A stretch of DNA of 39,521 nucleotides from Stramenopiles sp. TOSAG23-2 (lineage: Eukaryota). The notes under the pieces are model-generated. The model saw nothing but the letters and a program-made list of their open reading frames with translations. It was not told the origin of the DNA and made no database searches. Position numbers and translations under genes: made by a program. Below are positions 1 through 39,521 of this stretch, piece by piece (position 1 is the stretch's first letter; every line of letters starts with the position of its first letter). The stretch lies in assembly GCA_900128395.1 (NCBI GenBank), contig LT649312.1:1-39521 (forward strand), written 5' to 3'.

Positions 1-2322
1 CGTAATAATGGTAAAAATAATAATAATATGACATTGAAAGGATACGTGAATCAAGTCGGTAAAGATAGTTATGGTGAGACATATAGTACACCTTTAGAAA
101 TAGCAACAGACCAAGCCATTATTGATTATCTATTCTCCATTCTATTAGATGGAGAAGTAATAGATGGAGATAGTTATTATAGTTATTATAGTTTGTATAA
201 GGAAGCATTTCCACGCGGTACACCATTAGCATGTGCATGTGAAAAAGGACGTTTGGATGATGTGAAATTATTGATTACAAGCCATGATGTGAATGGTAGT
301 AAAATGACATTGAAAGAATACATAAATCAAAAAGGTAAAAGTAGCAATGGCGAAGAATGTACACCTTTAATAATAGCTGCACAGACAGTAGCAAAGTATT
401 TCATCGAGATCATATATCCAGATGCATCTAAATTAGAAAAGAAGTATTATGCAGAATTTCGACAAGGTACACCATTAGTATGTGCATGTCAAGAAGGACG
501 TTTACAGGATGTGAAATTATTGATTACAGGCCATCGGGTGAATCAAGAAGGTAAAAATAGTTCTGGTATAAGATGTACACCTTTACAGATAGCAACAGAC
601 CAAGCCATTATTGATTATCTATTCTCCATTCATTTAGATGGAGTAACACTTAATACAAATACATTGACTGGTGTATATAAAAACGAATTTCCGCGTGGTA
701 CGCCATTAGTATGTGCATGTGAAAAAGGACGTTTTGAGGATGTGAAATTATTGATTATAGGCCATGATGTGAATGGTAGTAATGGTAATAATAATAATAA
801 TATGACATTGAAAGAATACGTGAATCAAGTCGGTAAAACTAGTCGTGGTAATGATTATACACCTTTACTGATAGCTGCAGAGAACAAACATTTCCAAATA
901 GTTAAATATTTAGTTGAGATCATTTATCCTCATGCATCTAAAGTAGAAAAGAAATATTATGCAGAATCTCCAAAAGGTACGCCAATAGTATGTGCATGTG
1001 AAAAAGGACGTTTTGAGGATGTGAAATTATTGATTACAGGCCATGATGTGAATGGTAGTAATGGTAATAATAATATGACATTGAAAGAATACGTGAAGAA
1101 AGTCGGTCAATGTAGTGATGGTTATGACTATACACCTTTAAAAATAGCTGCAGAGAATAAACATCAAGACATATTAGACTATTTGGTAGATGCTGCATAT
1201 GCTGATGAAACTGAGATAGTAAGGAAATATAAAAAAGAATTTCCAGACGGTATGCCATTGGTATGTGCATGTGAAAAAGGACGTTTGGAAGATGTGAAAT
1301 TATTGATTACAGGCCATGATGTAAGAACAAGTGGTATGACATTGAAAGAAATGATAAATCAACCAGGTACAACTGGTGAAGGTGTTCGTACACCTTTAAG
1401 AGCAGCTGCAGAGAACAACCACCTAGAAATTATTGAATATATTGTAGATAGTGTATATGCTGATGAAACTGAGTTATTTCGAAAGTATAAGAAAGAATTT
1501 CAAGGTAATGTATTAGTATGTTTATGTGAGAAAGGACGTTTGGATGATGTGAAATTATTGATTGAAGACCATGATATGAATGGTAGTACAGATATTGGTA
1601 ATAGTATGACATTGAAAGAATATGCAAATCAAGTTGGTATAACTAGTAGAGATTGTTCTGAGCAAACACTAACACCTTTAGAAGCAGCTGCAAAAAACAA
1701 ACATTTTCACATAGTAGATTATTTAGTTGATATTATATATGAAATAAGAGATTTAAATTTGTTGGTCAAAAAATATATGAAAGAATTTCCAGAAGGTACG
1801 CCATTAGTATGTGCATGTGAAGAAGGACGTTTTGATGATGTGAAATTATTGATAACATGCTATGATGTGAATGGTAGTGATGGTAACAATATGGCATTGA
1901 AAGAAATGGTGAATCAAAAAGGTAAAAACAGTTGGGGTGGTGAATGTAAACCTTTGAGAATAGCTGCAGAGAAAGAACATTTTAAAATAACAAAGTATTT
2001 AGTCGAGATTGTTTACCCAGATGCAACTAAATTAGAAAAGAATTATTATATATATTATGGTGGCACGCCTTTGGTATGTGCATGTGAAAAAGGACGTTTG
2101 GATGATGTGAAATTATTGATTGAAGACCATGAGGAGAATGGTAGTAATGGTAATAATAATAATATGACATTGAAAGAATACGTGAATCAAGTCGGTATAG
2201 ATAGTGAAGGTGATGAACATACACCTTTAAGTGCAGCTGCAAATAATGAACATTTCCAAATAGTTAAATATTTGATTGAACAATGTGAAGCTGATCCTAA
2301 TATACGTGAATCAAGTCGGTAA
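1..2322 (+). CDS. 5' part of giant ANK-kinase-WWE-PARP/Nudix gene: tandem array of paired ankyrin-repeat units (5'-truncated by window edge)
   Basis: Frame is open from base 1. It has 8 near-constant repeats (TPLVCACEKGRL/FEDVKLLI) alternating with variable repeats (VNQVG-x-TPLxxAA). A 124-bp imperfect duplication (2178-2301 / 2302-2427) shifts the frame into the next ORF. Confidence 0.85.
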   Translation, partial: RNNGKNNNNMTLKGYVNQVGKDSYGETYSTPLEIATDQAIIDYLFSILLDGEVIDGDSYYSYYSLYKEAFPRGTPLACACEKGRLDDVKLLITSHDVNGSKMTLKEYINQKGKSSNGEECTPLIIAAQTVAKYFIEIIYPDASKLEKKYYAEFRQGTPLVCACQEGRLQDVKLLITGHRVNQEGKNSSGIRCTPLQIATDQAIIDYLFSIHLDGVTLNTNTLTGVYKNEFPRGTPLVCACEKGRFEDVKLLIIGHDVNGSNGNNNNNMTLKEYVNQVGKTSRGNDYTPLLIAAENKHFQIVKYLVEIIYPHASKVEKKYYAESPKGTPIVCACEKGRFEDVKLLITGHDVNGSNGNNNMTLKEYVKKVGQCSDGYDYTPLKIAAENKHQDILDYLVDAAYADETEIVRKYKKEFPDGMPLVCACEKGRLEDVKLLITGHDVRTSGMTLKEMINQPGTTGEGVRTPLRAAAENNHLEIIEYIVDSVYADETELFRKYKKEFQGNVLVCLCEKGRLDDVKLLIEDHDMNGSTDIGNSMTLKEYANQVGITSRDCSEQTLTPLEAAAKNKHFHIVDYLVDIIYEIRDLNLLVKKYMKEFPEGTPLVCACEEGRFDDVKLLITCYDVNGSDGNNMALKEMVNQKGKNSWGGECKPLRIAAEKEHFKITKYLVEIVYPDATKLEKNYYIYYGGTPLVCACEKGRLDDVKLLIEDHEENGSNGNNNNMTLKEYVNQVGIDSEGDEHTPLSAAANNEHFQIVKYLIEQCEADPNIRESSR

Positions 2323-5137
2323 AACTAGTGATGGTTGGCCATGTACACCTTTAACGATAGCTGCATGGTTCGAACATTTCCAAATAGTTAAATATTTGAT
2401 TGAACAATGTGAAGCTGATCCTAATATTGCAGATAGTGATGGATGGAATGCATTACATCATGCAGCAGGTCATAACAAAACAAATACTGATGTGATTAAA
2501 CTATTATTAATTCATATGACTTTTGTTAGTATTGTGAGTGAAACCCGAGACGGGGGATCATACAGTCCCACATACTGTTGTTTTGAATATAATTTCAGCC
2601 CAATTCGAGAAGCAATTATTGCACTTATAGATAATTGTGAAATCAACGGATATATTGATAATGATATTCACCCTGAACGATATGTATATATAGCCTGTTC
2701 AAAAAATCCAAAAGAATATATCAGTTTATACAATGGTTTACCAAATGATCATCAAAAATTAATCAAGAAAAATCTTCACTCTCTTATACCATCCGTAAAT
2801 TGTTATGCTAATTTATTGCAACAAACATTAAAGGATAATGTTGATGTTAAATTTCACATTTCACCATCACAAATAAACATAGAAGTTAGGAAAATGGAAA
2901 TACAATATGAAAAAGTTGTTGAATTGCAAAAGCAATATTATGAGCTAAATAGCAATATTAATATTGATAACTGTAATGATAATGCTTCAATTATTGAACG
3001 AAACAAGGCTAGAGAAAAATATCACAAACATGCCAATGCATACATAAATATTATGAACAATAATTCATTTGCTGAAGCATATATTAATTATCTTAGCCAG
3101 GCATATAGAACACTTACAATTGTTAATGATATTATGAAAACAAACTTTTATTTTTTTGGACCAAATACATTATCAGATAAACACAAAGAGAAACTCAAAA
3201 AATGTATCATAGAAGCAGGTCTAGATGATAACGACGACGGCAACGACATCGATGATGATGAAAGCGCTTTACCAATGAAAATTAAAATGGAAATGTTGGA
3301 TGCAATAAAAAAAGACAATATTGACAATTTTCAAAACTTAATAACTGAATATTCAACCCGTTTATCCAATGATTATGTAATTAATGAATTGAAAGAAGAA
3401 GCAAAAGCGGCCAATAACACACCTGCTATAGAGTTAATCCAGGAATGGTGTAATGAATTTATGGATGTAAATGCAGATATGGCATCAAGTGACAATAATA
3501 ATGATCAAGAAGCCAGTATTGAAAATATTACGTTAGATATTAGTACCGACAAGGATGGAGCAGACAATGTAGGTAGCGCCACAAACATATTAGACTATAA
3601 TTGTTTACACGAGAGATTTCACCATTTTCAAAGCAATTTTACTAGTTTATTTGCAAAAATTAGCAAAGACTCAACCAACGACATAACAGTAGAATTCATG
3701 GGAAATTTGTTAATGAAAGTGAACAAATTAATTATATATGCAACGGTATTCATGGATGAGATAAAATCATCTATCGATATAATAAAAGTATTATTAGATG
3801 AATTTGATGTATGCAAATTGAAGTATGAACAATGGAAGGAAATAGTAACGAAATTTGCTATTGTAGATGACAACAGCAATGCAACCTTCAATTGGGAATA
3901 CGTATATGAGTTTAATTGGGACCAAGTATATCAGGAGTTTAAAGAAAAAAAAAAACAATTTAAGAAATTATTGAAAATGTTAAAACATGCAAAACTAAAT
4001 ATGGATGACCGTGACGAAGATGATGACGAGCAAGAATTAGAAAATAATTTAAACAAAGCCAGGGACGACGTGAAGAAAGCATCAGACGAATTAAACAAAC
4101 AATCATTGGAACTTTTAAAAATTGGACGAGAACATTTTAGGGAAATAATACTACAATTTGGCAAGAAGATAGCCCTTGGAGGATTTAATGATGTAGGAAC
4201 TGTTTGGAAAGCAATTTATCATAAAGATTTGTTTGAGAAAGATGCAGCCCCGAAGAATCATCTCCAATCATTAAATGTGGTAGAGTTTGTTAAATTCAAA
4301 AATAAAAGTTATGTGCTAAAAAAATATAATTTGATAGATGACAAAACACGAAGAGGGTTTCGTCGAGAAATAAGAACTCTGTTGAGATTAAATCATCCAA
4401 ATGTTGTGTCTGTAAATGCAGCATTTCAACAAGTTGAAAAAGAAAAATTTTCAGGTGGGACACTCGAAAAATATTCTGGTTTCATACTCATGCCACGTTA
4501 TCAGAATGGTGATCTATTGCAATGGTTAGATGATAAACGGCCGAGTGTTTATCAAGTACGTGTTGTGCTTCAAGACGCACTTCGTGGTATTGCCGCGTTG
4601 CATAAGGAAAATATCATACATTGCGATATAAAACCAAAAAATATATTTGTTGATGCAAATGAGAATGGTTACATTGGTGATTTTGATGTAAGTCTAGATA
4701 AAAAAAGTAGAACAATGGCATCAAAATTGCGAAGTACGTCCATGGCAACAGGATTTAAAGGTGGTACCTGGGAATACATGGCACCAGAAATAAAGCAAGA
4801 AACAAACGCTTCTAATGCAACCTATTTTTCCGATATGTATTCTTTTGGAAAGTCTCTAAAAGAAACGTTACAAATTGCAAGTAAGATGGAAGTAAACGAG
4901 AAGAAATCGGACATGGATTCACAAAATCCTCAGACAACAACAAATGATAATGAAGAAGATCAAAGTCAAAAAAATATTTTAAAATTTGTAAAAGCACAGC
5001 GAGAAAAATTGGACGAAGCAAGAAATGATTTAATACTCAAATTGATGGATAAAGAGCCGGAAAAGCGAGGGAATGCAAATGATGCGTTAAATCATCCATA
5101 TTTTGGAAAAGCTGTAGCCGAACATCAAAACAAACAG
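2276..5137 (+). CDS. Middle part of giant gene: final ankyrin repeats, helical/coiled-coil region and Ser/Thr-type protein kinase domain (about 4270-5105)
   Basis: ANK motifs TPLTIAA and GWNALHHAA. Kinase motifs VLKKY, RRE helix C, HCDIKPKN, GDFD (DFG variant), GTWEYMAPE, SDMYSFG, HPYF. Ends at splice donor 5138. Confidence 0.85.
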
Positions 5138-5209
5138 GTATGTAATATTTATATATAAACCAATTTTATTAATACTAACATGTTTATTTTTGCATAATCA
5201 TATATACAG
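5138..5209 (+). other. 72-nt spliceosomal intron, phase 0, joining the kinase ORF to the PARP ORF
   Basis: CAG|GTATGT donor at 5138, TACTAAC branch point at 5173-5179, CAG| acceptor at 5209. Splicing is in frame (HQNKQ|DKELEKS) and removes the stop at 5156-5158. Confidence 0.9.
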
Positions 5210-7473
5210 GATAAGGAATTGGAAAAGAGTATAACGCACATTTTAAGCCTTCGCCAAGCCGAAGCAGATCGTTTAAGTGAATTTGTGCAATGGGGATATA
5301 CAAACCAAAATACTAAGTTTATTAAGTTGAACCATCAACATAATTACATTGTTGAAGAATCGTATCGGAAATGGAGAAGGTCGGGTAATGTTGCTACGGT
5401 TGATCTGGATGAAAATTCAATTGATAAAACATTTTATAATTATAAAACTAGAGACATTGATACTATGAATCACCGACGTTTGTATTCTATTTTTTTTGAG
5501 AAACATAAGCAGGCTTCAAACAATGGCGCAAACTTTTCTTGTAGTGGACATTGTTTTGAAAACAACAATAGTTTGATTCAAACGTTTGTGAGAAAAGATA
5601 CTGTTGCTGAATTACGATTTAGTTTAAAAGAAAAGGAAGAAGAAATTGCTGCACTCAAGGCAAAAATAGGTAGACTAGAGGCAGAGCTTGCAAAGACTAA
5701 ATCGTTATTAAAAAATACGCAAAAGGAATTGAAGGACAAAGATCGTCTTTTGAAAAAAACGCAAAGGGAATTGAAGGACTGTTACAATGAACTTCAAAAA
5801 AAAGAAGAAAAACTGAATTTACAAAAGAAACTCTATAAGAACAAAGATCGTCTTCTAAAAAAAGCACGTTCGCAAATGCGAGGGGATAGAAGGAAATTAC
5901 GCCCATTTGCTATGCCACCATATTGGAGGACGCATTTATTAGGTGAAACAAAGCCAAAACATTACAATACTGAATTTATGAAGAAAAAAATGGAAGAGTT
6001 GATACGAAAAACAAGTGTATTTAAAACAACAGATAAAGCTAAAGTGATAAAAGTTGAACGAGTGGAATATCCAGCATTATGGGCTAGTTACTGTGGCATG
6101 GCCGAGCAAACGCGTAAACGTCATGCAAAGGTATTGAAAAAAAATGAACATAGTTTGAAAATGAAGATGGGACAGAAACCTATAACATATAGACTTCCAA
6201 AAGATCGAGGAGGTAGAAGGGCTCCCTTATATACTATAACAACAACTAATATACGTAGTAATTATGATCGATCAAAAGTCTCTAAGACTTATAAAGGTGC
6301 TGGTATTCTCCCATATGCAATCGATAAAAATGGCACAATAAAAGTTCTATTAGGTCGAATAAATTATGGGATTATGGAACCATATGCCGACTTTGGTGGC
6401 CTGCGTGATCCTGGTGAAGATAGTACAAAATTTACTGCATCACGTGAGTTTACAGAAGAAACACAAGAGTTATTTAAGCACAATCAAGCAGAGACAATAG
6501 CTATGTTAGAGAACGAGAATACGAACAATGTTGTGAGGATACATAATGAATCTGCCCATTATGTTATGTATATGCTAAAGGTCGACTTTAATAAGTATCC
6601 TAAACATTATAAACAAGCACTGGAAACACCATCAAAATTGAAACATAAAATAGAATTATCAGAAATGAAATGGATTCCGTTAAAAGATATCATTAAAGCA
6701 GTCAAACAAGCCAAAAATAAAGGGCACTGTTACGATGTTGCCGTGAACAATGATAAGGAAATTATTTTAAGGAAAGAATTAGTTGACACATTGATTATTG
6801 CATATGACGGAGGTATTTTGGATAAAATAGTGAAAAAATCTTACTCTAGTATATCCAGGAAAAAAATATCTGCATCTATACAATATCCATTGTTTCAACT
6901 TGATACGCGTATTAATGAATTTTATTTATGGCATGGAACGAGTGCAGAGTCTGCTAAAATTTTGACCAGCACAGGCCTGCCAACAGAACACCTTGCTGGT
7001 TCAAACTCTGGTGCATTATATGGCAATGGAATGTATTTTGCTGAAAATTCTTCAAAATCCGATCAATATACACAGCCAGGTCGTCAAGGTCGTCGCGTTT
7101 TATTACTATGCCGTGTGGCACTGGGGAAAATATTTTACACGCCAAAAGCGTTGATAGGATTAAAACATCCTGGCCCTGGATGCAGTAACAAGTTTAAAAA
7201 CTTAAAGTCGACGCAAGGTGCTAAAAAGTTAGGTAGTGCTCTATTTGACTCCATTGTAGCAGATGGAAAAACGAATCGTTTTGGTGCAAAACAGATACAC
7301 CGAGAATTTGTAATATTTGATGCACAAAGATGTTATCCTGAATTCATAGTTTTGACTCCATTGTAGCAGATGGAAAAACGAATCGTTTTGGTGCAAAACA
7401 GATACACCGAGAATTTGTAATATTTGATGCACAAAGATGTTATCCTGAATTCATAGTATGGTACAAACACTAA
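5210..7473 (+). CDS. 3' exon: WWE-like domain, coiled coil, tankyrase-like PARP catalytic domain with inserted Nudix hydrolase
   Basis: WWE-like QWGY..IVEESY..YSIFFEKHKQ (about 5280-5530). PARP motifs PPYW, KVERVEYPALWASY, NEFYLWHGT, GMYFAENSSKSDQY, LLLCRVALG, HREFVIFD, YPEFIV. Nudix box GGLRDPGEDSTKFTASREFTEET at 6395-6463. As assembled it stops at 7366; collapsing the 107-bp duplication gives YPEFIVWYKH* ending at 7473. Confidence 0.85.
7244..7457. repeat. Exact 107-bp tandem duplication (7244-7350 / 7351-7457)
   Basis: Two identical copies read directly; it disrupts the PARP C-terminus. Confidence 0.95.
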
Positions 7474-7499
7474 ACACACTAAACACTAAACATGCATAG

Positions 7500-7943
7500 G
7501 TGTATTATTTATGGCATGGAACGAAGGCAGTGTTTGCTAAGATTTTGACAAGTACAGGTCTGCCAACAGAATACCTGGCTAGTTTAGGTTCACTATATGG
7601 CTTGGGAATGTATTTTGCTGAAAATGCTTCGAAATCGGATGAGTATGCAATATCTAAACAACCTGGACCAGGTCATGGAGTACTCTTGTTATGCCGTGTC
7701 GCATTAGGCAAAATATTTTACACGCCCGCAGGATTAAAAGGTTTAAAACATCCTGGCCCTGGATGTGGCTCTATGTTTGAAAAATTGGAGTCAACACAAG
7801 GTGGCAAAAAATTAGGCAGTGTTCTTTTTGACTCAATTGTAGCAGACAGAAAAAGTAGGGGCAGGTCACAGCATCATTGAGAGTTTGTTATATTTGATGC
7901 ACAAAGGTGTTATCCTGAATTCATTGTGACGTACAAACGCTAA
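7500..7943 (+). pseudogene. Second PARP catalytic core copy with in-frame TGA just before the catalytic Glu
   Basis: YYLWHGT..GMYFAENASKSDEY..LLLCRVALG..QHH*EFVIFDAQRCYPEFIVTYKR*. TGA 7878-7880 aligns with CGA (Arg) 7301-7303 of the first copy. No ATG or N-terminal PARP part. Confidence 0.8.
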
Positions 7944-10686: not shown

Positions 10687-13600
10687 ATGGCTGAAGTTAT
10701 AAATCCTGGACAAAAAGGTGGACAGGAAGATAGCTCAAAGCCCATCATTTGCTTAGCAGGTTGGTTTTATACTGATGAAAGCAGAACTTGGAAATCCTTT
10801 ATTAAACACCCAGATCTCGAAAATATACTAGAAAAATATGGTATAACAGTGAATAATCGCGTCCCAAAAAAAAAAAAAGAGTGTGACTTTTTATTAGTAA
10901 GTGAAGGGAATCCAGAAGATGAAAGAAAGGACAGCAAGGGAAAAAAATATTATTATAGGAATATAGCGCGAATAAAAATAAAAAGTAGCGAAACCAATCC
11001 TCAACAAAGTGATGAAAAACAAATTTGGATAGATGGATCGGATAAGTATGAAGCTGCAAAAAAATTAGGCATCGAAATAAAACACGACAAGGATGCACGT
11101 GCATACATTCAAGAATTGTTGAGTAATTCATATGAGATACATGAGTTAACAAAGGAGGGAACAGATGATGTGTGGCAAATAAGAAGATATGGACAATTTT
11201 TAATACACCTTTGGAAGCACAAGAAGCATACAATTATCCGTGGAATCGTTGCATTTGATAATGCAAAGAAGAAGATGGACGAGCTTGTCAAAGAAAAACG
11301 AAAAGAAGGATATGATGATATTGATAAAAACGAAAACTCGGAGTTCATAGGTCCCTCAAAACCATTCAAGTGCTCATCATTTCCACAAATAACGCCATTT
11401 TTATCTACTAAACAGAAAAATGAAAGAATTAAAGTATTTATACAAGATATTAAAGATTGCACGAAAAATAATTTTAAATTCAATATTATCATGAGTGATC
11501 TTGGGATGTTTGTAGAAATATTTTTACTGGAATTAAAGAAGTGTAAAAATAATAAGAAACTACAACGTATAAAAAATGGCATCAAAGAACAATTCAATCG
11601 TTTAGTGGAAGTTGCGAAGGAAAAAAAAAATACAGAAAAAGAAGGCAAAGATTGGTATTTTCTTTTAATACTTTTTCCTATGATCATAGCAATGGACGAA
11701 AACGAAAAAAACTATATACTTCAAAGGGATATGAAACGCATTGAGAACCAATATTACAACAGAAAATCTAAAACAGAGTCTAAAAAGGACAAATCACGTC
11801 AGGTTCCTAAGGAGCCTACTCATGACGATATGTATAAAACACATATACTTTCATGTAACCAACAAGAAAAGTTTAAAGAGCTACAACAGAAATTCAAAAA
11901 CTCAAAATCTATAGACAAAGTAGAAATAAAAAATTTTCATAAAGCTATTCGTGAGTCCATATCCCTAAAAACACTACAGAAAATGATTAAGTATATGAAG
12001 ATTAAAACGGACATAGCCGACATAGCCGAAATCCATAGCAATGAAGATGCGAAAAAAACAGAAATTACTGAAGACATAGTTGGTTTTGAATCAATCGATC
12101 CAGACGGTGGTTTGTTCACCAAAGCACCAATGGAAACTTCTAACAGTGGTGTCAACAACTTTTGCGCAGCATTCAGCTGCTGCTTTACAAGTCAAAAAAA
12201 CAATTATGTAAATTTTGTTCGCATTGGTATACTTATTCTCGAAGCAATTCCACAAATATTCAGGTTTGCTTTTGTGCACCGATGGAACAATTTATACCCG
12301 CATTTCGAGTTTAAAATAAAGCAAGCAGAAAGTGGGCGTCGATTAGTTGATGGGGGGGATGTAATTCGTAGGGCATCTAATGAAAAGTGGACAATTAGTA
12401 GGATTCAGCAGCATCAGGTAAAAAAGAGGTTTTATACATGTATCATGAGTGAGGATCTCAAAACAGAACTCACGGGCCGTATACAAAACTTAAAAAGAGG
12501 CGATGGTGAAGTATGCCTGGTTTTTCATGATACAGATAATTTCAAATATTTAAAAGCGCAGCATATTATAAAGATAGAAGAGAAAGAAAACCTCATTAAT
12601 TCCAATGATAAGACACTGAAATTTGAGTATAAATTCACATCAATTATTCTTATGACCTTCAACGATTTAATCGTTAATAAAATATTTGAAAATACGTATG
12701 TAACTAAAAAAAAAGAAAAAGAATATGAAAAAACGTACCTATGTGAAAAATTGCTTTTGGAAAATCTTTTGAAAACCACGCTTGAAAAATCCAGTGAGCA
12801 AGTTGACATTGTACATCGTATACCTGGACCAAATTGGGACAAAATTAAAGGTAAAACCATTGATGAAAATAGTAAACATCTTTTCGAAAACGCCATGATT
12901 GATGACTTAGATGTCACATGCATGAATGCCATTTTTAAAAATATAGGGGGCCTTTGTGACATGAAATCAGATCAATTCAACAAAGGGGAAAAGGAGAGAA
13001 AAAAATTGTACAAAAACAAGAACATTACGACTTTTGAAGCTTGGATAGATAAGGTTGGTGAATCAAACATTTCACCAGAAGTTATTCTTAATGAATTAAA
13101 ATTTATACGCAATAAAAAATTAGCACATCGTCATAGTACTAAGGTGCCTGACAAAGAATGGCGATATTGCAAAGAACTGTTTTTATATTTTTTGGGTATA
13201 TTGATAGAAAACAAATGGCTCAGCAAAGAGGAGGTCACAAAATTAAAAAAAAAAGTTAAAGAGGCAGAGGCTGTTAATATGAGCGACGGTATGAATACCG
13301 TGGAAAACATCCAAAGTAGAATGGAAACATTATTTTCAAATATTGACACGCAAGTAAAGGAATTTGAAAAAAACGTATCAAAGGTAAAGAAGGACGCACA
13401 ACAATTTGGAGACATAGTATCAAAGGCAGGTGATGATACACAGAGATTGGGAAAAGTTGTAACGAAGTTTGAAAAATTCGCAAGTTGCTTCGAAGATATG
13501 ATAAAAGTGTTGAATCTCAACAGTAATAATGATATAATAAAAAATGAAGAACGAAAAAATGACATGCAGAAACCTGTGAGTGATAAGATTAATTATAGCA

Positions 13601-16600
13601 ATGATTCTGGTGAAATAATTCATATAATAGTGGCCCAATTATTACTTTTAACTAAGCTAGCCGAAGGAGACAATGTTAGTAGAGAAAAACAATCCGATTT
13701 GGCCAGGAATCTAAAAAGGGCTTTGAACCAAGTGATGGATATAAGGAAAGATGTATCTTCTGGATGGTACCGCGCTTTAGACCTTCCTTCCATATTAGCT
13801 CCAATGAAAACATTAGCATTAAAATTAAATGCTATCTCATTGACAAATCCCGGAATGAATACAACATCATCACCAACAACAACAATATCATCAGATTCTA
13901 TATCCTCTGTTACAGGGCTTATTTATTTATGCATACCAAATATTGAAAAAGATAAATATGAAAATGTTAATATTCAATTTTTATTAGAAGCACAACATAT
14001 ACAACAATTTACAGGTGCAAAACTTTATCAAGGGAATTATGAAACGTTTTTAGAAACAATTGACTCACATGAAAATCAATCTATCAAATGGATACATTTT
14101 ATTGGACATGGTGGTAAAAATACATTTGGACGTGATTTAGGACTTGTATTAGCCGATGATAAAGGAAATTTAGAACATATTGAAGATGAACGTTTAATAA
14201 AAACATTGCGTACACGTACAACGCAACTCGAATTAGTAACATTTAATGCATGTTCTACAAGTAAATTAGTGGCCGCAATAACAAAACAAAATGGAGTGAA
14301 ACATTCATGGGGATGGTCAACAAAATGCCATGGTTATGCTGCAGCTATTATTGGAAAATGGTTTTATTATCATCATATAGTATTAAAGAAGTCCGTATTG
14401 GATGCATTTGAATGTGCAAAAAGTTATGTTGATGTAAAAACAAAAGTGATTGGAAAAGGTGTTGATAATGTTCTCATTTCAGAGGAACAATTTGTATTTG
14501 GTGATCCATCGAAAAAAACAAAAATTGATAACATGGATGTAGCTGGTATACCATTATTACTAAATAACAAATGGCAAGATAAATTTCCATATGCCTGGTA
14601 TGCACTTTCATATAAAAAAACATGGTCGAAGAAAATTCATAATAATAAATTTAATGAAGTGTTATATTATGTTTGTAGCAATGAAAATGAAATTTGCACT
14701 GTAACGGGCATACGTGGATGTGGTGGTGCAGGTAAAACTGTACTTTGTTTACAATTGGCTCAAGATCCGTTGATCTATTCGACATTTAAACACGGTGTTG
14801 TATATATCAAAGCAGGACAAGAAGCAAGACCGCTTAATATATTAAAACAATGTTTTAAACAATTGAAAGAGGACAAGAAATTAATTAAATTAAATATAAA
14901 GGATGAAAAAGATTATGAAATATATCTTGATGGAGAGAAAACGTTTGGGGTTGACGATGAAACAATGACGCGAAATTGGGTCAATGATAAAAAGTTAAAG
15001 TGGTTAGTTGAAAAATTACAGCAATATTTGCAAGGCATAGATTTACATGCTGTTGTTATTATTGATGATGTTTGGTCCGACAAGTGTTTTGATCACTTAA
15101 CTTCAATAATACAAGCAAAGGCATGCAATTCGCGTATTGTTATATCAACAAGAAATAGTACCATATTGGAAGGTAAAGATAAAAAAGAATTTTGTTTAGA
15201 TACATTAAATGAGACGGATGCCATTGATTTTTTCAAGGGGCAAACAAATGATAATGATAGTAATTGGAACGAAAACGACTTAAAAGATATTGTTAACAAG
15301 ACTGGCAAACTTGTCCTTTTTCTCTCCATATTAGCAAAAAAAGTTAACTTTAAAAACTACGAAGATGGTGGTTTAAATCGTATACTAAAAGCATTAGATC
15401 CTAATCGATCGACATTAAGAAACACTTCAATTGGATTAAAAAAAATCTTCAATAAAGCAGAAGATGATGTAGCATATGGAAAATCTGCATTAGCTTGCTT
15501 ATCAATTGGTGTTGATTTTATTGAAGATGATATTCAAGATGATCAAGGTAAAGAGGTACAAAATAAATATATCATGTTGGGTATATTTCCTGAAGATAGT
15601 GAAATATCATATGAAGCATTAAAGGTATTATGGAATTTTGATGATATAAATTATGTCGAAGAACATGTTGAATATTTTTCTAATCAATCTCTTTTAGTTA
15701 ATAATCGAACAGGTAAATATATTAAAATGCATAATTTACAGTGTAGATATGTGATTGAACGTTTGAAGGAAGATAATGATGGTATTGAAATTGATCAATT
15801 ACTTAAAATTATAGCAAGTACCATGGTTGAATTTCCAAATGCTTTTAAGGATTGTGTTGAAACGACCAACATTATTTGTTCATCGATTATATGTGCATGC
15901 GAGAGAGGGCGTTTGGAAGATCTCAACATATTGCTTGAAGCTAAGGATAGTGTTAATAAATTCGGCAAAAGCATTCGTGGTCATGAATGTACACCTTTAA
16001 TGGCAGCATGTGTATGTGGGCATTTAAAAATCGTAGAATTGCTATTGAGTAAAGGTGCTGATGTTTTACAAGCAGAAAGTCGATTTGGTTGGACTGCTTT
16101 GCATTGGACTATATTATGTGAACCAAAACCAGACGAATATATCCAGATAATAAATAAGCTTTTGGAGGTAAAAGCAGAAGCATTAGTAAATCAAAGAACA
16201 CGGCAAGGGGAAACTGCGTTAGATTGTGCAAGTAACAGACTTGATTCTGTTGAATTTTGTGAATTATTGAAAATGAAAGGGGGGAAACGAAGGGTCGAAT
16301 TAGAAGAATATACGAGGAAAGCTGAGCGGATAAATTACTTGTTTGAGGCGGTAAAAGATGATGATATGATAAGCATTTACATAGGTGAGCTAACTAATGG
16401 TGATGAAAATAGTGTACTAGAACATTATGTGGATGATAATGGCAATAATCTGCTTCATCATGCTGCAATGCATAGTAAAAATGCCGATACAATGAAATTA
16501 TTATTACAACACACGTTGTTAGAGGAAGCTGTATTTAAAAACGAAATCACAAAAAAGACACCATTAGATGTTGCAAAGGAACGTAAGAAAAAAAACGACG

Positions 16601-17031
16601 AAACAGAGATTAAAAACAAAATTACTAAAAAGGCGCCATCGGAAATTGAAGTTATGATTGCATTGTTAATGAAAACCAAATACGTAAAAGATTTATATGC
16701 AGCTGTTAAAAATGATAACCAGGCTTCAATAATAGAATGCATAAAGCAGCTCGATAGTCTAGCTTTAATACTGTATGGCAAGGGTGAAAAGATTATACTA
16801 GGGCATTATTTGAATGATGCTTGCAATAATCTGCTTCATCATGCTGCAATGCATAGTAAAAAGGCCAGTACAATGAAATTATTATTACAATACATGTTGT
16901 TAGAGGATGCTGTATTTGAAAACAAAATCACGAAAAAGACACCATTACAGGTCGCAGAGGAACGGAAGAAAGAAAACGACGGAACAGAGATTAAAGAGAT
17001 AATTACATTGTTAAAGATGAAATTTGAGTAG
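10687..17031 (+). CDS. STAND NB-ARC (APAF-1-like) NLR-type protein: BRCT - WGR-like - HEPN - coiled coil - CHAT protease - NB-ARC - ankyrin repeats
   Basis: BRCT: IICLAGWF..LENILEKYG..GSDKYEAAKKLGI. WGR-like: RRYG..AKKKMDELVKEKRKEGY. HEPN: NFVRIGILIL..FRFAFVHRW, DLDVT, RNKKLAH (13108-13128). CHAT: HFIGHG (His 14107), FNACS (Cys 14251). Walker A GCGGAGKT (14716-14739), Walker B VVIIDDVW, sensor ISTRN, MHN (15727). ANK: TPLMAACVCGH, GWTALHW, GETALD, NLLHHAA twice. Confidence 0.88.
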   Translation: MAEVINPGQKGGQEDSSKPIICLAGWFYTDESRTWKSFIKHPDLENILEKYGITVNNRVPKKKKECDFLLVSEGNPEDERKDSKGKKYYYRNIARIKIKSSETNPQQSDEKQIWIDGSDKYEAAKKLGIEIKHDKDARAYIQELLSNSYEIHELTKEGTDDVWQIRRYGQFLIHLWKHKKHTIIRGIVAFDNAKKKMDELVKEKRKEGYDDIDKNENSEFIGPSKPFKCSSFPQITPFLSTKQKNERIKVFIQDIKDCTKNNFKFNIIMSDLGMFVEIFLLELKKCKNNKKLQRIKNGIKEQFNRLVEVAKEKKNTEKEGKDWYFLLILFPMIIAMDENEKNYILQRDMKRIENQYYNRKSKTESKKDKSRQVPKEPTHDDMYKTHILSCNQQEKFKELQQKFKNSKSIDKVEIKNFHKAIRESISLKTLQKMIKYMKIKTDIADIAEIHSNEDAKKTEITEDIVGFESIDPDGGLFTKAPMETSNSGVNNFCAAFSCCFTSQKNNYVNFVRIGILILEAIPQIFRFAFVHRWNNLYPHFEFKIKQAESGRRLVDGGDVIRRASNEKWTISRIQQHQVKKRFYTCIMSEDLKTELTGRIQNLKRGDGEVCLVFHDTDNFKYLKAQHIIKIEEKENLINSNDKTLKFEYKFTSIILMTFNDLIVNKIFENTYVTKKKEKEYEKTYLCEKLLLENLLKTTLEKSSEQVDIVHRIPGPNWDKIKGKTIDENSKHLFENAMIDDLDVTCMNAIFKNIGGLCDMKSDQFNKGEKERKKLYKNKNITTFEAWIDKVGESNISPEVILNELKFIRNKKLAHRHSTKVPDKEWRYCKELFLYFLGILIENKWLSKEEVTKLKKKVKEAEAVNMSDGMNTVENIQSRMETLFSNIDTQVKEFEKNVSKVKKDAQQFGDIVSKAGDDTQRLGKVVTKFEKFASCFEDMIKVLNLNSNNDIIKNEERKNDMQKPVSDKINYSNDSGEIIHIIVAQLLLLTKLAEGDNVSREKQSDLARNLKRALNQVMDIRKDVSSGWYRALDLPSILAPMKTLALKLNAISLTNPGMNTTSSPTTTISSDSISSVTGLIYLCIPNIEKDKYENVNIQFLLEAQHIQQFTGAKLYQGNYETFLETIDSHENQSIKWIHFIGHGGKNTFGRDLGLVLADDKGNLEHIEDERLIKTLRTRTTQLELVTFNACSTSKLVAAITKQNGVKHSWGWSTKCHGYAAAIIGKWFYYHHIVLKKSVLDAFECAKSYVDVKTKVIGKGVDNVLISEEQFVFGDPSKKTKIDNMDVAGIPLLLNNKWQDKFPYAWYALSYKKTWSKKIHNNKFNEVLYYVCSNENEICTVTGIRGCGGAGKTVLCLQLAQDPLIYSTFKHGVVYIKAGQEARPLNILKQCFKQLKEDKKLIKLNIKDEKDYEIYLDGEKTFGVDDETMTRNWVNDKKLKWLVEKLQQYLQGIDLHAVVIIDDVWSDKCFDHLTSIIQAKACNSRIVISTRNSTILEGKDKKEFCLDTLNETDAIDFFKGQTNDNDSNWNENDLKDIVNKTGKLVLFLSILAKKVNFKNYEDGGLNRILKALDPNRSTLRNTSIGLKKIFNKAEDDVAYGKSALACLSIGVDFIEDDIQDDQGKEVQNKYIMLGIFPEDSEISYEALKVLWNFDDINYVEEHVEYFSNQSLLVNNRTGKYIKMHNLQCRYVIERLKEDNDGIEIDQLLKIIASTMVEFPNAFKDCVETTNIICSSIICACERGRLEDLNILLEAKDSVNKFGKSIRGHECTPLMAACVCGHLKIVELLLSKGADVLQAESRFGWTALHWTILCEPKPDEYIQIINKLLEVKAEALVNQRTRQGETALDCASNRLDSVEFCELLKMKGGKRRVELEEYTRKAERINYLFEAVKDDDMISIYIGELTNGDENSVLEHYVDDNGNNLLHHAAMHSKNADTMKLLLQHTLLEEAVFKNEITKKTPLDVAKERKKKNDETEIKNKITKKAPSEIEVMIALLMKTKYVKDLYAAVKNDNQASIIECIKQLDSLALILYGKGEKIILGHYLNDACNNLLHHAAMHSKKASTMKLLLQYMLLEDAVFENKITKKTPLQVAEERKKENDGTEIKEIITLLKMKFE
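16420..16997 (+). repeat. Internal duplication of a C-terminal ankyrin unit (about 16420-16615 and about 16803-16997)
   Basis: HY(V/L)..NNLLHHAAMHSK.A.TMKLLLQ..LLE.AVF.N.ITKKTPL.VA.ERKK.ND.TEIK occurs twice with high DNA identity. Confidence 0.85.
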
Positions 17032-26852: not shown

Positions 26853-26953
26853 GGAATAATTTAGAGTAGACACAATCATATTACACTTTATGTAGGAAAT
26901 TGAAAAACGACACTATATAAATAGATATCTTTTCTTCCAAATGAACTACACCA

Positions 26954-30587: not shown

Positions 30588-31814
30588 ATGAATATGAATA
30601 CTACCGAAGTCACAGTGAATGGCATTCTATCCACTGGCCTTGATGATAAGTCAAAATTACATGCATTGGAGCGACTAAGGGCCAGGGTAAACTTTGAGAT
30701 TACAAAAATACGCAAACATCGCCTACAAAATTATGATTTTTCAACATTACCTGGTATTGATGATATTTGCGTGAAAACAATCATACCATATCTTTGTAAT
30801 GATACTCAAGCATTAGTAAATATGTTTGCAAGAACCACTAAACGTTTTCTTAATGTATCAACAGTACAAGTTGCTTATTATAAAATAGTTTTACCGAGAA
30901 AATATGTTTGTATTCCAGGAAATGAATTGATTCATGGAAGCAAATGTGGTACATTAACACTAAAAGATGCATCGATATTAGTGAATACGTTAAACCATTC
31001 AATCCGGCTGTTTGAAAATAATGATTCAATGTTGCATTGTTTGCACTATGCAGGACTTAATGGCCATTTATCGATTGTGCAGTTTTTGGTAGAGGAATTT
31101 GACATGGATATACATGTAAAGGATGGAGAGGGTAATTGTGTTACGTATTTAAGTGCCTTACATGGGAACATGGGTGTAGCAGACTATTTAGTAGCAAAAG
31201 GCGGTGATTTGCATAACAAAAACAAAGGGGTGTTGGATAGGTTAACAGCACATTATAAGAAAGAATTTCCACGCATTTCGCCATTAGTGTGTTTATGTAA
31301 AAAAGGACGTTTAGAGGATGTGCAATTATTGATTAAAGCAGTCCATGATGTGAATAGTAGTAATGGCAATGGTATGGCAGTGAAAGAATACGTGAATAAA
31401 GCCGGTAGAACCAGTACAGCCAGTAGAAGTCGGGAAGTTACACCTTTAATGGCAGCTGCAGGGGGCGAACATTTCCAAGTAGTTAAATATTTAATTGAAC
31501 AATGTGAAGCTGATCCTAATATTGCAGATAGTTATGGACAGAATGCATTACATTGGGCAGTAGGTACTAAGAGAACGGATACTGGTGTGATTCAGCTCTT
31601 GTTGAATAATATGTCTCTTGATAGTATTAATAAGAAGAGCAGGTGGGGATACACTCCCCTGGACAGGGCATATCAATATAATAATAGACTATTATTTAAT
31701 AATAGTCCAATTCGCTACCAAGAGATCATTAGGCTTATACGTTCAAAAGGTGGAAAAGCAAATGTTCATGATGAAAATGGTAGAGGTTTAATAAAAAATT
31801 CATGCATTTATTAA
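30588..31814 (+). CDS. F-box-like + ankyrin-repeat protein
   Basis: F-box-like FSTLPGIDDICVKTIIPYL..NMFARTTKRF (about 30738-30858). ANK repeats CLHYAGLNGH, YLSALHGN, SPLVCLCKKG, TPLMAAA, NALHWA, YTPLDRA. The last units are near-identical in DNA to those at 2372-2437. Confidence 0.8.
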   Translation: MNMNTTEVTVNGILSTGLDDKSKLHALERLRARVNFEITKIRKHRLQNYDFSTLPGIDDICVKTIIPYLCNDTQALVNMFARTTKRFLNVSTVQVAYYKIVLPRKYVCIPGNELIHGSKCGTLTLKDASILVNTLNHSIRLFENNDSMLHCLHYAGLNGHLSIVQFLVEEFDMDIHVKDGEGNCVTYLSALHGNMGVADYLVAKGGDLHNKNKGVLDRLTAHYKKEFPRISPLVCLCKKGRLEDVQLLIKAVHDVNSSNGNGMAVKEYVNKAGRTSTASRSREVTPLMAAAGGEHFQVVKYLIEQCEADPNIADSYGQNALHWAVGTKRTDTGVIQLLLNNMSLDSINKKSRWGYTPLDRAYQYNNRLLFNNSPIRYQEIIRLIRSKGGKANVHDENGRGLIKNSCIY

Positions 31815-37499: not shown

Positions 37500-37649
37500 G
37501 TTGGATTTGATTGTAATCAAAGTAGTAGTAGTAATGTTTGTCCAATTAATTCCAATAACAATGCATCGTCTCGATTGTATATAGCATTTGTAATCTTAGA
37601 TGACATGTTGGATTTGATTGTAATCAAAGTAGTAGTAGTAATGTTTGTC
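37436..37649. repeat. Exact 107-bp tandem duplication (37436-37542 / 37543-37649)
   Basis: Two identical copies spanning the start codon of the ANK/Dpy-30 gene. Confidence 0.95.
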
Positions 37650-37833: not shown

Positions 37834-39521
37834 TTAATTATTATGTAGGAATATCTCCATCCTTTTCACTTGTTGATACCCGTTTGATCCAGCTTGTTTA
37901 TATTGTTGTATAGCTTTTAATTGTGATTTCATATTAGAACTAAGTTGATTATTAACTAGGCGCAATCTCCATAATGTATTGTTTGTTTTTAATCCATCAA
38001 TAATACTTTGTACATCAGTAATATTATTATTATATAGGCGCAAGAACTCTAATGTCTTGTTTGTTTTTAATCCTTCACCAATACTTTGTACATCAGTAAT
38101 ATTATTACCATATAGGTACAAGTGCGTTAATGTATTGTTTGTTTTTAATCCATCACCAATACTTTGTACATCAGTAATATTATTATCATCTAGGAGCAAT
38201 ATCGTTAATGTCTTGTTTGTTTTTAATCCTTCACCAATACTTTGTACATCAGTAATATTATTACCATATAGGTACAAGTGCGTTAATGTATTGTTTGTTT
38301 TTAATCCATCACCAATACTTTGTACATCAGTAATATTATTACCATATAGGTACAAGTGCGTTAATGTATTGTTTGTTTTTAATCCATCACCAATACTTTG
38401 TACATCAGTAATATTATTATTACCTAGGTCCAATCTCGTTAATGTATTGTTTGTTTTTAATCCATCACCAATACTTTGTATTCCACCATCATCAGTAATA
38501 TTATTATTATATAGGTTCAATACTCTTAATGTATTGTTTGTTTTTAATGCTTCGCCAATACTTTGTACATCAGTAATATTATTATCATGTAGGAGCAATA
38601 CCTGTAATGTATTGTTTGTTTTTAATCCTTCACCGATACTTTGTACATCAGTAATATTATTATTACGTAGGTACAATGTCTCTAATGTATTATTTGTTTT
38701 TAATCCTTCGCCAATAATTTGTACATCAGTAATATTATTATTAGATAGGGACAATTTCATTAATGTATTGTTTGATTTTAATCCTTCACCAATACTTTGT
38801 ACATCAGTAATAGTATTATTATTTAGGTACAATTCCGTTAATGTATTGTTTGTATTTAATGCTTCACCAATACTTTGTACATCAGTAATATTATTACCAG
38901 ATAGATACAATTCCTTTAATGTATTGTTTGTTTTTAATGCTTCACCAATACTTTGTACATCAGTAATATTATTATTACGTAGGACCAATGTCTCTAATGT
39001 ATTGTTTGTTTTTAACCCTTCACCAATACTTTGTACATCAGTAATATTATTATTACGCAGGTACAATGTCTCTAATGTATTGTTTGTTTTCAACAATTCA
39101 CCAATACTTTGTACATCAGTAATATTATTATTATCTAGGTCCAAGTTCGTTAACGTATAGTTCGTTAATGTATTGTTTGTTTTTAATGCATCACCAATAC
39201 TTTGTACATCAGTAATAGTATTATTATTTAGGTACAACCTCGTTAATGTATTGTTTGTTTTTAATGCATCACCAATACTTTGTACATCAGTAATATTATT
39301 ATTACGTAGGGCCAAGTACATCAATGTATTGTTTGTTTTTAACACTTCACCAATACTTTGTACATCCTCATCACGGATGTTCTTTCCATCCAAATTTACA
39401 TTACTGTCAGCAAAATTGACTCCATATTTTTTTGTTAATACAACTCTAAAATAATAACAACGCAAAGGATCATATTCAAGAAATTTTTTACATGTTTTCG
39501 CAAACATATTTATCATTGCAA
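37834..39521 (-). CDS. Probable F-box + LRR protein with 18 tandem 26-aa RI-like LRRs (probably 5'-truncated by window edge)
   Basis: 78-bp unit DVQSIG(E/D)xLKTNNTLxxLxLxxNNIT, 18 copies. N-terminal INMFAKTCKKFL..YYFRVVLTKKY aligns with the end of the F-box-like region of the 30588 gene (VNMFARTTKRFL..YYKIVLPRKY). Confidence 0.88.
   Translation of the reverse strand, partial: AMINMFAKTCKKFLEYDPLRCYYFRVVLTKKYGVNFADSNVNLDGKNIRDEDVQSIGEVLKTNNTLMYLALRNNNITDVQSIGDALKTNNTLTRLYLNNNTITDVQSIGDALKTNNTLTNYTLTNLDLDNNNITDVQSIGELLKTNNTLETLYLRNNNITDVQSIGEGLKTNNTLETLVLRNNNITDVQSIGEALKTNNTLKELYLSGNNITDVQSIGEALNTNNTLTELYLNNNTITDVQSIGEGLKSNNTLMKLSLSNNNITDVQIIGEGLKTNNTLETLYLRNNNITDVQSIGEGLKTNNTLQVLLLHDNNITDVQSIGEALKTNNTLRVLNLYNNNITDDGGIQSIGDGLKTNNTLTRLDLGNNNITDVQSIGDGLKTNNTLTHLYLYGNNITDVQSIGDGLKTNNTLTHLYLYGNNITDVQSIGEGLKTNKTLTILLLDDNNITDVQSIGDGLKTNNTLTHLYLYGNNITDVQSIGEGLKTNKTLEFLRLYNNNITDVQSIIDGLKTNNTLWRLRLVNNQLSSNMKSQLKAIQQYKQAGSNGYQQVKRMEIFLHNN

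What the first reader, a model, noticed from the sequence alone, without database searches (positions are those of the whole stretch)
1..39521. Candidate modular protist immune system: shared hypervariable ANK/LRR sensors attached to PARP, NLR and F-box effectors
Seen: one distinctive ankyrin module (CACExGRLEDxxxL..VNxxG-variable-TPL) occurs in three unrelated architectures: the kinase/PARP giant, the NB-ARC protein (about 15880-16030) and the F-box-like protein. 2372-2437 and 31468-31533 differ at only 2 of 66 nt. The same F-box-like head also carries a hypervariable LRR array. Known: variable repeat sensors on STAND proteins with swappable effectors occur in fungal NLRs, and F-box families evolve fast in nematodes and plants. 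Inference: a common pool of recognition repeats is being routed to ADP-ribosylation, RNase/protease and ubiquitin outputs, plausibly antiviral.
Basis: partly seen in the sequence, partly recalled or inferred. Interest (0 to 1): 0.88.

Follow-up and report, generated by a model that had tools for sequence, protein, structure and literature searches.

The report
Variable ankyrin/LRR sensor genes in protist
A marine protist locus carries several genes that reuse one fast-varying ankyrin binding module (and a similar leucine-rich repeat) on different enzymes, including a cell-death-type NLR, which looks like an innate-immune toolkit but is not proven to be one.

Summary
The observation mostly holds. 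A lineage-specific three-repeat ankyrin (ANK) module occurs in an ANK array next to a kinase-NUDIX-PARP gene, in a 408-aa "head"+ANK protein, and as a more distant copy at the C-terminus of a 2114-aa NB-ARC protein. The quoted 66-nt near-identity is real, off by one base. The 78-nt LRR array varies almost only on its predicted binding face.

Three corrections apply:
- The "F-box" is unproven. No Pfam F-box match was found in 0 of 22 head proteins, and the only support is a weak language-model lead.
- The "giant" is broken in the window by a 124-nt out-of-register piece and an exact 107-nt duplication. An independent contig lacks the 107-nt copy. The ANK-to-kinase join could not be verified.
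- The 66-nt identity is the conserved scaffold, not a demonstrable exchanged cassette.

The NB-ARC protein carries a CHAT protease domain and a probable DZIP3-like HEPN domain, and an independent contig confirms its junction with ANK. An immune or conflict role is plausible by analogy with fungal NLRs and marine-invertebrate expansions, but it is inferred. I rate it a new variant of a known kind, of moderate interest.

The parts
1..2303 (+). ANK array, open at the window start. It has 8 full units of about 83-97 aa (starts 217, 466, 697, 976, 1249, 1504, 1795, 2062) plus a partial first unit. Each unit holds two ANK repeats, with a variable loop before T-P-L.
   Evidence: Ank_2 E=5e-68; period 273, 5.8 copies, 70% matches
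2180..2427 (+). Two out-of-register 124-nt pieces (2180-2303 and 2304-2427). Their ends are identical and their middles differ, and together they break the reading frame at 2304. Dropping either one restores a single frame.
   Evidence: (D5, D6 spacing 124)
2304..2657 (+). Last ANK module and cap, in frame with the kinase ORF. It contains the 65-nt core 2373-2437.
   Evidence: 136.9 bits
4295..5104 (+). Ser/Thr protein kinase domain (aa 674-943 of ORF 2276-5158).
   Evidence: (Pkinase E=1.2e-31)
5138..5209 (+). 72-nt intron (GT..TACTAAC..AG) joining the kinase exon to the NUDIX/PARP exon in frame.
   Evidence: read-through
6392..6712 (+). NUDIX-like domain (borderline Pfam score).
   Evidence: NUDIX E=2.7e-4, 21.4 bits against cut-off 21.1
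6905..7472 (+). PARP catalytic domain. In the window it is interrupted by the duplicated 107 nt; with one copy the frame runs to a stop.
   Evidence: PARP E=5.6e-20; PARP15/14 E about 2e-7
7244..7457 (.). Exact 107-nt tandem duplication (2.0 copies, 100%). It is absent from an independent contig of run X1, so it is most likely an assembly artefact.
   Evidence: joint 7243->7351, record 4
7500..7927 (+). Second, degenerate copy of the PARP catalytic exon, with an internal stop.
   Evidence: PARP E=1.3e-13; D17 77%, D20 86%
10687..17031 (+). 2114-aa STAND protein: orphan N-terminus, HEPN-like region, CHAT, NB-ARC, winged helix, ANK.
   Evidence: contiguous in X1 contig record 5 (9719-16451, 0 differences)
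12889..13266 (+). Probable DZIP3-like HEPN domain; the R-x5-H motif is at aa 808-814 (nt 13108-13128).
   Evidence: HEPN_DZIP3 E=0.037; HEPN_AbiU2 E=0.049; score 0.90, 171-174 shared features
13960..14262 (+). CHAT (caspase-like) protease core, with a His (aa about 1137-1141) and a Cys (aa 1189).
   Evidence: CHAT 25.8 bits against cut-off 24; 8tl0 CHAT E=0.0084
14683..15747 (+). NB-ARC NTPase plus APAF-1-like winged helix. P-loop at aa 1344, Walker B at aa 1458, MHD-like K-M-H-N-L at aa 1680.
   Evidence: NB-ARC E=7.5e-14; ADR1, Sr35
15883..17028 (+). C-terminal ANK region. The first part is a distant copy of the family module (aa 1733-1869), followed by an internal duplication (16404-16625 and 16785-17006, 87%).
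   Evidence: 80.2 bits; D12, D14
17125..17413 (-). Gene remnant: an ANK-like stretch followed by one LRR unit of the 78-nt family.
   Evidence: (D2, copy at 17149-17208)
30588..31814 (+). 408-aa protein: conserved head (aa 29-102, nt 30672-30893), two ordinary ANK repeats, then the family ANK module (aa 226-399).
37834..39521 (-). LRR protein whose N-terminus runs off the window. It has the last 26 residues of the head, then 18 LRR units (16 of exactly 26 aa), with variation at the x positions of LxxLxLxx.

Best explanation
The window comes from an AT-rich marine protist. It carries members of two multi-copy, lineage-specific repeat families. One is a three-repeat ANK module. The other is a 26-residue LRR of the type I recall as cysteine-containing (FBXL-like). 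Both have a conserved scaffold and concentrate variation on the predicted ligand-binding face.

Domain shuffling has placed these binders on different outputs:
- an NB-ARC STAND protein with a CHAT protease and a probable HEPN RNase;
- probably a kinase-NUDIX-PARP enzyme;
- a conserved 75-aa head of unknown, possibly F-box-like, fold.

The most likely working model is intracellular non-self or conflict surveillance. In the NB-ARC protein, a ligand bound by the ANK face would release NB-ARC oligomerisation, which would activate the protease and RNase and kill or arrest the cell. The head proteins would act as adaptors that bring bound targets to a partner complex. The kinase-NUDIX-PARP protein would modify what its ANK array binds.

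Shown: the domains, the shared family, the variable faces and the NB-ARC-ANK continuity. Inferred: ligand sensing, oligomerisation, cell death and any antiviral role. The sharing is explained by common ancestry and family expansion; ongoing cassette exchange is not shown.
For: Family membership was tested with an HMM built from non-window sequences.

The family is large:
- 396 proteins at E<=1e-3 among 4174 near-length candidates.
- 233 contigs of run X1 and 1015 of run X2 lie on 17.1 kb, with depth in ANK bins far above the unique bins.

Variation sits on the binding face:
- Across 165 module copies, the highest-entropy positions are the hairpin and first-helix positions of three successive repeats.
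- LRR concave positions have dN 0.94 and dS 0.143. The rest have dN 0.043 and dS 0.088. The top five columns by dN are the five a-priori columns.

NB-ARC protein:
- NB-ARC E=7.5e-14. The P-loop, Walker B and MHD-like motifs are present.
- CHAT scores above the Pfam cut-off when scanned alone.
- For HEPN, two Pfam models give weak hits on the R-x5-H stretch, and the nearest atlas clusters carry HEPN_DZIP3.
- An independent X1 contig spans 9719-16451 with no difference.

Other architectures:
- PARP E=5.6e-20. His and Tyr align to PARP15 and the Glu aligns to tankyrase-2.
- Head+ANK recurs in 18 of 22 head-bearing proteins, counting the window's own.
- Relatives fuse the module to RING (1 protein) and zf-MYND (2 proteins).

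The analogous logic is in print for fungal NLRs (PMC4986451, abstract read) and for HEPN/PARP/ANK expansions in marine invertebrates (PMC8195603, passages read).
Against: - There is no functional, infection or population data.
- ANK surface dN/dS is only about 1.25 against 0.84 elsewhere, which relaxed constraint would also give.
- The unit-to-unit comparisons are within one protein, so they are not allelic tests.
- HEPN is below the Pfam threshold (14.3 against 27 bits).
- The first 1050 aa of the NB-ARC protein have only 4 short fragment matches among 1.84 billion representatives.
- The head gives no F-box profile hit in 0 of 22 proteins.
- No relative with the module joined to a kinase, PARP or NB-ARC was found among 62 long hits.
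- The ANK-to-kinase join is not bridged by contigs of X1 or X2; both stop matching at 2658.
- The repeat genes are interspersed with ordinary genes (C2, PP2C, CDK-like kinase), so this is not a dedicated island.
- No PADLOC defence model matches the CHAT/NB-ARC or HEPN-like segments. The NUDIX/PARP segment gave only a marginal LmuB hit at E=0.0063.
Confidence: 0.5

Rival explanations
1. Ordinary lineage-specific expansion. The ANK module and the LRR are general protein-interaction scaffolds used in housekeeping signalling and protein turnover. Their variability reflects relaxed constraint plus concerted evolution of repeats, with no role in immunity.
For: ANK dN/dS is near 1 everywhere (0.84 and 1.25). 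Relatives fuse the module to RING and MYND domains, which are common regulatory domains. The genes sit among ordinary genes. No defence model matches the CHAT/NB-ARC or HEPN-like segments.
Against: LRR concave positions have dN about 6.6 times dS while the scaffold is conserved, which relaxation alone does not give. The NB-ARC+CHAT+HEPN-like combination is typical of death and conflict proteins in the literature read (PMC8195603 passages).
Confidence: 0.25
2. The 'kinase/PARP giant' is an assembly product. The ANK array (1-2657) and the kinase-NUDIX-PARP gene (2658-7472) belong to different loci, joined through family repeats. On this reading no ANK sensor feeds a PARP.
For: - The window holds three exact 105-107-nt tandem duplications. 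An independent contig of the likely source run lacks two of them.
- There is a non-biological-looking junction at 2304.
- Region 1-2657 is fragmented, and the contigs of X1 (record 4) and X2 (record 15) both lose the match exactly at 2658, with 82 and 32 unmatched letters before it.
- No homologue with module plus kinase or PARP was found.
Against: The frame stays open for 127 codons upstream of 2658, through an ANK cap whose end differs from the family consensus. Dropping either 124-nt piece gives one 2389-aa frame. Short-word contigs are expected to break at the edge of a repeat family.
Confidence: 0.3
3. Self/non-self recognition between conspecific cells (allorecognition, mating or fusion control), or regulated cell death for other reasons, rather than defence against viruses.
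For: Fungal NLRs with variable ANK/TPR/WD repeats control heterokaryon incompatibility (PMC4986451 abstract; PMC12222747 listing). The same architecture logic is seen here.
Against: Nothing here separates this reading from pathogen sensing. No partner polymorphic locus was seen.
Confidence: 0.1

Closest known systems
Fungal NOD-like receptors with ANK/TPR/WD repeats (Dyrka et al. 2014, PMC4986451, abstract read)
   Same: A STAND NTPase sits between a variable N-terminal effector and C-terminal superstructure-forming repeats. Domains are reassorted combinatorially. The repeats have a conserved scaffold and variable positions.
   Different: The organism is a marine protist. The effectors are CHAT plus a probable HEPN domain. 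The NB-ARC protein carries only one diverged family module, not a highly homogenised array. The strongly hypervariable array (LRR) is not on the NLR. Fungal NLRs lack LRRs.
Lineage-specific expansions of Death/TRADD-N proteins in marine invertebrates with HEPN, PARP, STAND and ANK modules (Kaur et al. 2021, PMC8195603, passages read)
   Same: The same domain vocabulary (HEPN RNase, PARP, STAND, ankyrins, kinases) appears in fast-evolving, variable architectures of marine organisms. The nearest atlas clusters for the HEPN-like region are molluscan and cnidarian.
   Different: No Death-fold or TRADD-N domain was found here. The organism is unicellular.
F-box/LRR (FBXL-type) substrate adaptors of SCF ubiquitin ligases (recalled knowledge)
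   Same: A short N-terminal helical head beginning L-P is followed by 26-residue LRRs with an I-T-D motif or by ANK repeats.
   Different: The head fails every F-box profile test done. Skp1 binding is untested. The consensus cysteine of the LRR is asparagine here.
Macro-PARPs PARP14/PARP15 (closest solved catalytic domains)
   Same: PARP catalytic fold, with His and Tyr aligned.
   Different: There is no macro domain. A glutamate occupies the third catalytic position. The domain is fused to NUDIX and a kinase, and probably to an ANK array.
Plant CNL/ADR1 and Apaf-1-type NB-ARC proteins (Pfam NB-ARC and APAF-1-like WHD)
   Same: NB-ARC NTPase with P-loop, Walker B and an MHD-like motif.
   Different: It has ANK instead of LRR/WD40, and a CHAT/HEPN-like N-terminal part instead of CC/TIR/CARD.

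Membership tests
NB-ARC STAND (NLR-like) | NB-ARC profile match with P-loop and Walker B | tested here: met
   Pfam NB-ARC E=7.5e-14, 52 bits against cut-off 23.5. G-x-G-G-x-G-K-T at aa 1344 and hhhDD at aa 1458.
NB-ARC STAND (NLR-like) | Winged helix with MHD-type motif | tested here: inconclusive
   APAF-1-like WHD scores 21.8 bits, below the cut-off of 27. K-M-H-N-L at aa 1680.
NB-ARC STAND (NLR-like) | C-terminal repeat sensor and N-terminal effector in one polypeptide | tested here: met
   CHAT, NB-ARC and ANK lie in one ORF. An independent X1 contig spans 9719-16451.
NB-ARC STAND (NLR-like) | Ligand-triggered oligomerisation and effector activation | not testable with these tools
   Needs biochemistry.
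F-box | Match to the F-box / F-box-like profiles | tested here: not met
   No family at E<=10 for the head alone. 0 of 22 head-bearing sequences hit an F-box model. None of 22 proteins carries a precomputed F-box domain. phmmer against PDB finds no F-box protein.
F-box | About 45-aa three-helix fold after an L-P start | tested here: inconclusive
   The AlphaFold model has three helices after L-P-G, but mean pLDDT is 52.6. Foldseek gives 0 matches. The first atlas hit is an F-box cluster at 0.88 with 115 shared features, which is a lead only.
F-box | Binding to Skp1 | not tested
HEPN (DZIP3-like) | R-x4-6-H motif | tested here: met
   R-N-K-K-L-A-H at aa 808-814. It is the only such motif in the first 1100 aa under the pattern used.
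HEPN (DZIP3-like) | Profile match above threshold | tested here: not met
   HEPN_DZIP3 scores 14.3 bits (E=0.037) against cut-off 27; HEPN_AbiU2 E=0.049. Atlas clusters with HEPN_DZIP3 on 34-38% of members score 0.90.
HEPN (DZIP3-like) | All-alpha helical bundle | tested here: inconclusive
   The single-sequence model is all helical but has pLDDT 55.2. There is no Foldseek match at E<=0.001.
CHAT / caspase-like protease | Profile match and His/Cys dyad | tested here: met
   CHAT scores 25.8 bits against cut-off 24 when aa 1072-1338 are scanned alone. G-H-G is at aa about 1140 and N-A-C at aa 1187-1189.
PARP catalytic domain | Profile match and H-Y-E triad | tested here: met
   PARP E=5.6e-20. 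H and Y align with PARP15. E aligns with the tankyrase-2 A-E-Y-V-I-Y stretch, a short match at E=0.59. That this E is the catalytic one is recalled.
Repeats of high internal conservation with hypervariable sites (fungal NLR type) | Near-identical units whose variation sits at predicted binding positions | tested here: met
   LRR units match at 87%, and 3 units are identical at DNA level. The top five dN columns are the concave x positions. ANK units match at only 70%.
Repeats of high internal conservation with hypervariable sites (fungal NLR type) | Repeat-number and sequence polymorphism between individuals | not tested
   Only contigs, not reads, were available, and one laying call.

The most novel reading that the evidence does not exclude
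A unicellular marine eukaryote runs an NLR-style innate immune repertoire built on interchangeable hypervariable ANK and LRR sensors. The same sensor families would feed a death switch (NB-ARC with CHAT protease and HEPN RNase), a kinase-NUDIX-PARP modifier and an E3-adaptor-like head. It would be aimed at the giant viruses and other parasites of plankton, and would be an independent protist counterpart of fungal, plant and animal NLR systems.
Probability: 0.3. Interest if true: 0.8.

Novelty: new variant of a known kind. Interest (0 to 1): 0.55.

Why it matters
Defence systems of single-celled eukaryotes against viruses are described as largely unknown (PMC10945749, significance text seen in the search listing). 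My literature searches found this logic described for fungi, animals, plants and bacteria. They found no paper describing an ANK-module family shared between an NB-ARC/CHAT/HEPN protein, a PARP enzyme and small adaptor proteins in a marine protist. If real, the locus gives concrete, testable candidates for protist immunity: one NLR, one PARP enzyme and two adaptor families. It would also be a case of repeat hypervariability outside the classical lineages.

Tried and rejected
- The whole genome of the window is not held, so no genome-wide census was possible.
- Structure of the head: AlphaFold pLDDT 52.6 and Foldseek against PDB gave 0 matches. Uninformative.
- Structure of the HEPN-like segment: pLDDT 55.2, best Foldseek E=1.4. 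Uninformative.
- Search of the NB-ARC N-terminal 1050 aa against 1.84 billion representatives gave only 4 short fragments, so no alignment could be built.
- Viral contig scans with the 408-aa protein and with P0124 found no family member. The only hit was one generic ANK match in a giant-virus bin.
- The metagenome scan with the kinase part found 2 weak kinase matches only, so there was no independent check of the architecture.
- PADLOC gave no match for the CHAT/NB-ARC and HEPN-like segments, and only a marginal LmuB hit (E=0.0063) for the NUDIX/PARP segment.
- Cluster look-up gave no organism names.
- A gene-conversion reading of the 66-nt core was rejected as unsupported (p=0.36).
- WGR at the NB-ARC N-terminus was rejected (E=0.27).
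- Parts of 1-2657 without bridging contigs, and RNA-library contigs lying on 5217-7526 and 15934-16084 in run X16, are noted only as hints. The library may hold DNA, and contigs cannot show transcription.
- Supplementary files of papers were not consulted.

Full report
**What the window is.** The 39.5-kb window is AT-rich (GC 0.27-0.36 per 2 kb) and has no tRNA genes. Its long ORFs are rich in polyN/polyQ. A 72-nt GT..TACTAAC..AG intron lies at 5138-5209. Ordinary eukaryotic genes are present: a C2-domain protein, a CAP-Gly/RanBD/PP2C protein, a CDK-like kinase and a plant-type LRR membrane protein. Homologues of the repeat proteins come from ocean metagenomes and a protist protein collection. 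The DNA is found in seawater and marine runs. No whole genome is held for it. I read it as a marine protist; the name of the organism was not available.

**The ANK module.**
- ORF 1-2322 holds eight full units and a partial one, each opening with the C-x-C-[EQK]-x-G helix and containing a variable loop before T-P-L.
- The same unit occurs once in the 408-aa ORF 30588-31814 and once at aa 1733-1869 of the 2114-aa NB-ARC ORF.
- I built an HMM from 165 module copies found in 119 non-window homologues and scored the window proteins and controls:

| Protein | Best-domain score (bits) |
|---|---|
| 408-aa protein | 266.7 |
| ORF 2276-5158 | 136.9 |
| ORF 1-2322 (nine domains) | 126.9 |
| NB-ARC protein (nearly the whole model) | 80.2 |
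| 56 generic ANK proteins, best | 55.8 |
| Generic ANK/Dpy-30 gene of the same window | 37.8 |

- The NB-ARC copy therefore belongs to the family but is old and diverged.
- The quoted 66-nt identity is real, with a one-base offset (2 mismatches in 65), and lies inside a 215-nt match of 80%. It encodes the most conserved scaffold peptide.
- Synonymous differences are 1 of 20 same-residue codons in the core and 4 of 24 outside it (p=0.36). I see no evidence for a recently exchanged tract.

**Variability.**
- Across the 165 family copies, the highest-entropy columns are the hairpin and first-helix positions of three successive repeats. This is the usual ANK binding face (the structural assignment is recalled).
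- Among the window's units, a-priori surface codons give dN 0.775 and dS 0.62, against 0.313 and 0.374 for the rest. That is elevated but not decisive.
- The LRR array is much clearer. It has 18 units, 16 of exactly 26 aa, and three units are identical at DNA level.
- At the five x positions of LxxLxLxx, dN is 0.94 and dS 0.143. Elsewhere dN is 0.043 and dS 0.088. The five columns with the highest dN are exactly those five.
- These are comparisons between units of one protein, not between alleles.

**The NB-ARC protein.**
- Pfam gives NB-ARC (E=7.5e-14), an APAF-1-like winged helix below threshold, and ANK. CHAT passes its cut-off when the segment is scanned alone (25.8 against 24 bits).
- The P-loop, Walker B, an MHD-like motif and a His/Cys pair are present. 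The closest solved relatives are plant ADR1 and Sr35 and a CHAT protein, all weak matches.
- The first 1050 aa are almost orphan: 4 short fragment hits among 1.84 billion representatives.
- Inside that region, aa 735-860 carries an R-x5-H motif. It draws weak hits from two HEPN models (E=0.037 and 0.049). Its nearest language-model clusters carry HEPN_DZIP3 on 34-38% of members (score 0.90, 171-174 shared features).
- I take HEPN as probable, not shown. Structure prediction did not help.

**The "giant".**
- The kinase ORF and the NUDIX/PARP ORF are joined in frame by the intron.
- The PARP domain is closest to PARP15/14 and has a glutamate aligned to the tankyrase-2 A-E-Y motif.
- In the window the PARP end is broken by an exact 107-nt tandem duplication. 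Two more exact duplications of 105-107 nt exist.
- A contig assembled independently from the likely source run covers 2658-8487 and skips the second copies at 7244-7350 and 8143-8247. These are therefore most likely assembly artefacts.
- At 2304 the frame breaks where two 124-nt pieces with identical ends and different middles follow each other. Dropping either one, with the intron and one 107-nt copy, yields one 2389-aa frame.
- Region 1-2657 is fragmented in all runs. Contigs of two runs stop matching exactly at 2658, the end of the ANK cap. The kinase-NUDIX-PARP part is solid, but its link to the ANK array is unverified.
- A scan of metagenome contigs found no relative to settle it. None of the 62 long hits joins the module to a kinase, PARP or NB-ARC; the family-level ones carry RING or zf-MYND.

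**The head.**
- A 75-aa segment beginning L-P-G is conserved in 22 proteins, 18 of which also carry ANK.
- A head HMM from 20 non-window sequences finds the first 26 residues of the LRR ORF, which is cut by the window end. The score is 14.2 bits (E=5e-4 among 353 six-frame segments; the next best is 4.6 bits). The shared head on ANK and LRR proteins is therefore likely real.
- Its identification as an F-box fails every profile test. It rests only on a three-helix low-confidence model and a sub-threshold atlas lead.
- The 26-residue LRR with an I-T-D motif resembles the type found in FBXL proteins (recalled), which keeps the idea alive.
- A remnant on the minus strand at 17125-17413 combines an ANK-like stretch with one LRR unit. 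This is further evidence of shuffling.

**Interpretation.**
- The domain vocabulary and the pattern of conserved scaffold with a variable face match fungal NLR repertoires (PMC4986451, abstract). They also match the HEPN/PARP/STAND/ANK expansions of marine invertebrates (PMC8195603, passages).
- That makes a conflict-sensing role the best single reading. It is inferred, and the ubiquitin and ADP-ribosylation arms are the weakest parts.
- Contigs from a polyA RNA library lie on the PARP gene and on the NB-ARC ANK unit. This cannot prove transcription.
- Overall this is a new variant of a known kind, of moderate interest.

Noticed in passing
7244-7457, 8143-8358, 37436-37649: Three exact or near-exact two-copy tandem duplications of 105-107 nt. 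An independent contig of run X1 lacks the first two, so they are probably assembly artefacts. The third lies in the 5' part of the ANK/Dpy-30 gene and was not checked.
   Followed up: partly
8646-9748: A nest of inverted repeats (arms up to 279 nt, 96-100% complementary) lies between the PARP remnant and the NB-ARC gene. Depth in an independent seawater run is very high here (about 500-840, against single digits in most of the unique bins of the stretch). This suggests a multi-copy foldback or MITE-like element.
   Followed up: no
7500-7927: A degenerate second copy of the PARP catalytic exon (77-86% DNA identity to 6922-7271) with an internal stop. It is a local duplication remnant.
   Followed up: partly
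17125-17413 (minus strand): A gene remnant pairing an ANK-like stretch, similar to the one after the head in the 408-aa protein, with one LRR unit of the 78-nt family.
   Followed up: partly
16404-16625 and 16785-17006: Internal duplication (87% identity) in the C-terminal ANK region of the NB-ARC protein. The independent X1 contig ends at 16451, inside it.
   Followed up: no
26954-27268: A small ORF with an N-P-P-F motif and weak hits to N6-adenine DNA methyltransferase models (EcoRI_methylase E=0.0025, MTS E=0.0027). It may be a fragment.
   Followed up: partly
28013-30037: An unusual single ORF combining CAP-Gly, RanBP1 and PP2C domains.
   Followed up: no
P0124 (relative, not in the window): A 960-aa ANK-module plus RING protein comes from a 0.22-0.45 micrometre ocean size fraction according to its source name, which hints at a viral or very small carrier. 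A scan of viral contigs found no family member.
   Followed up: partly
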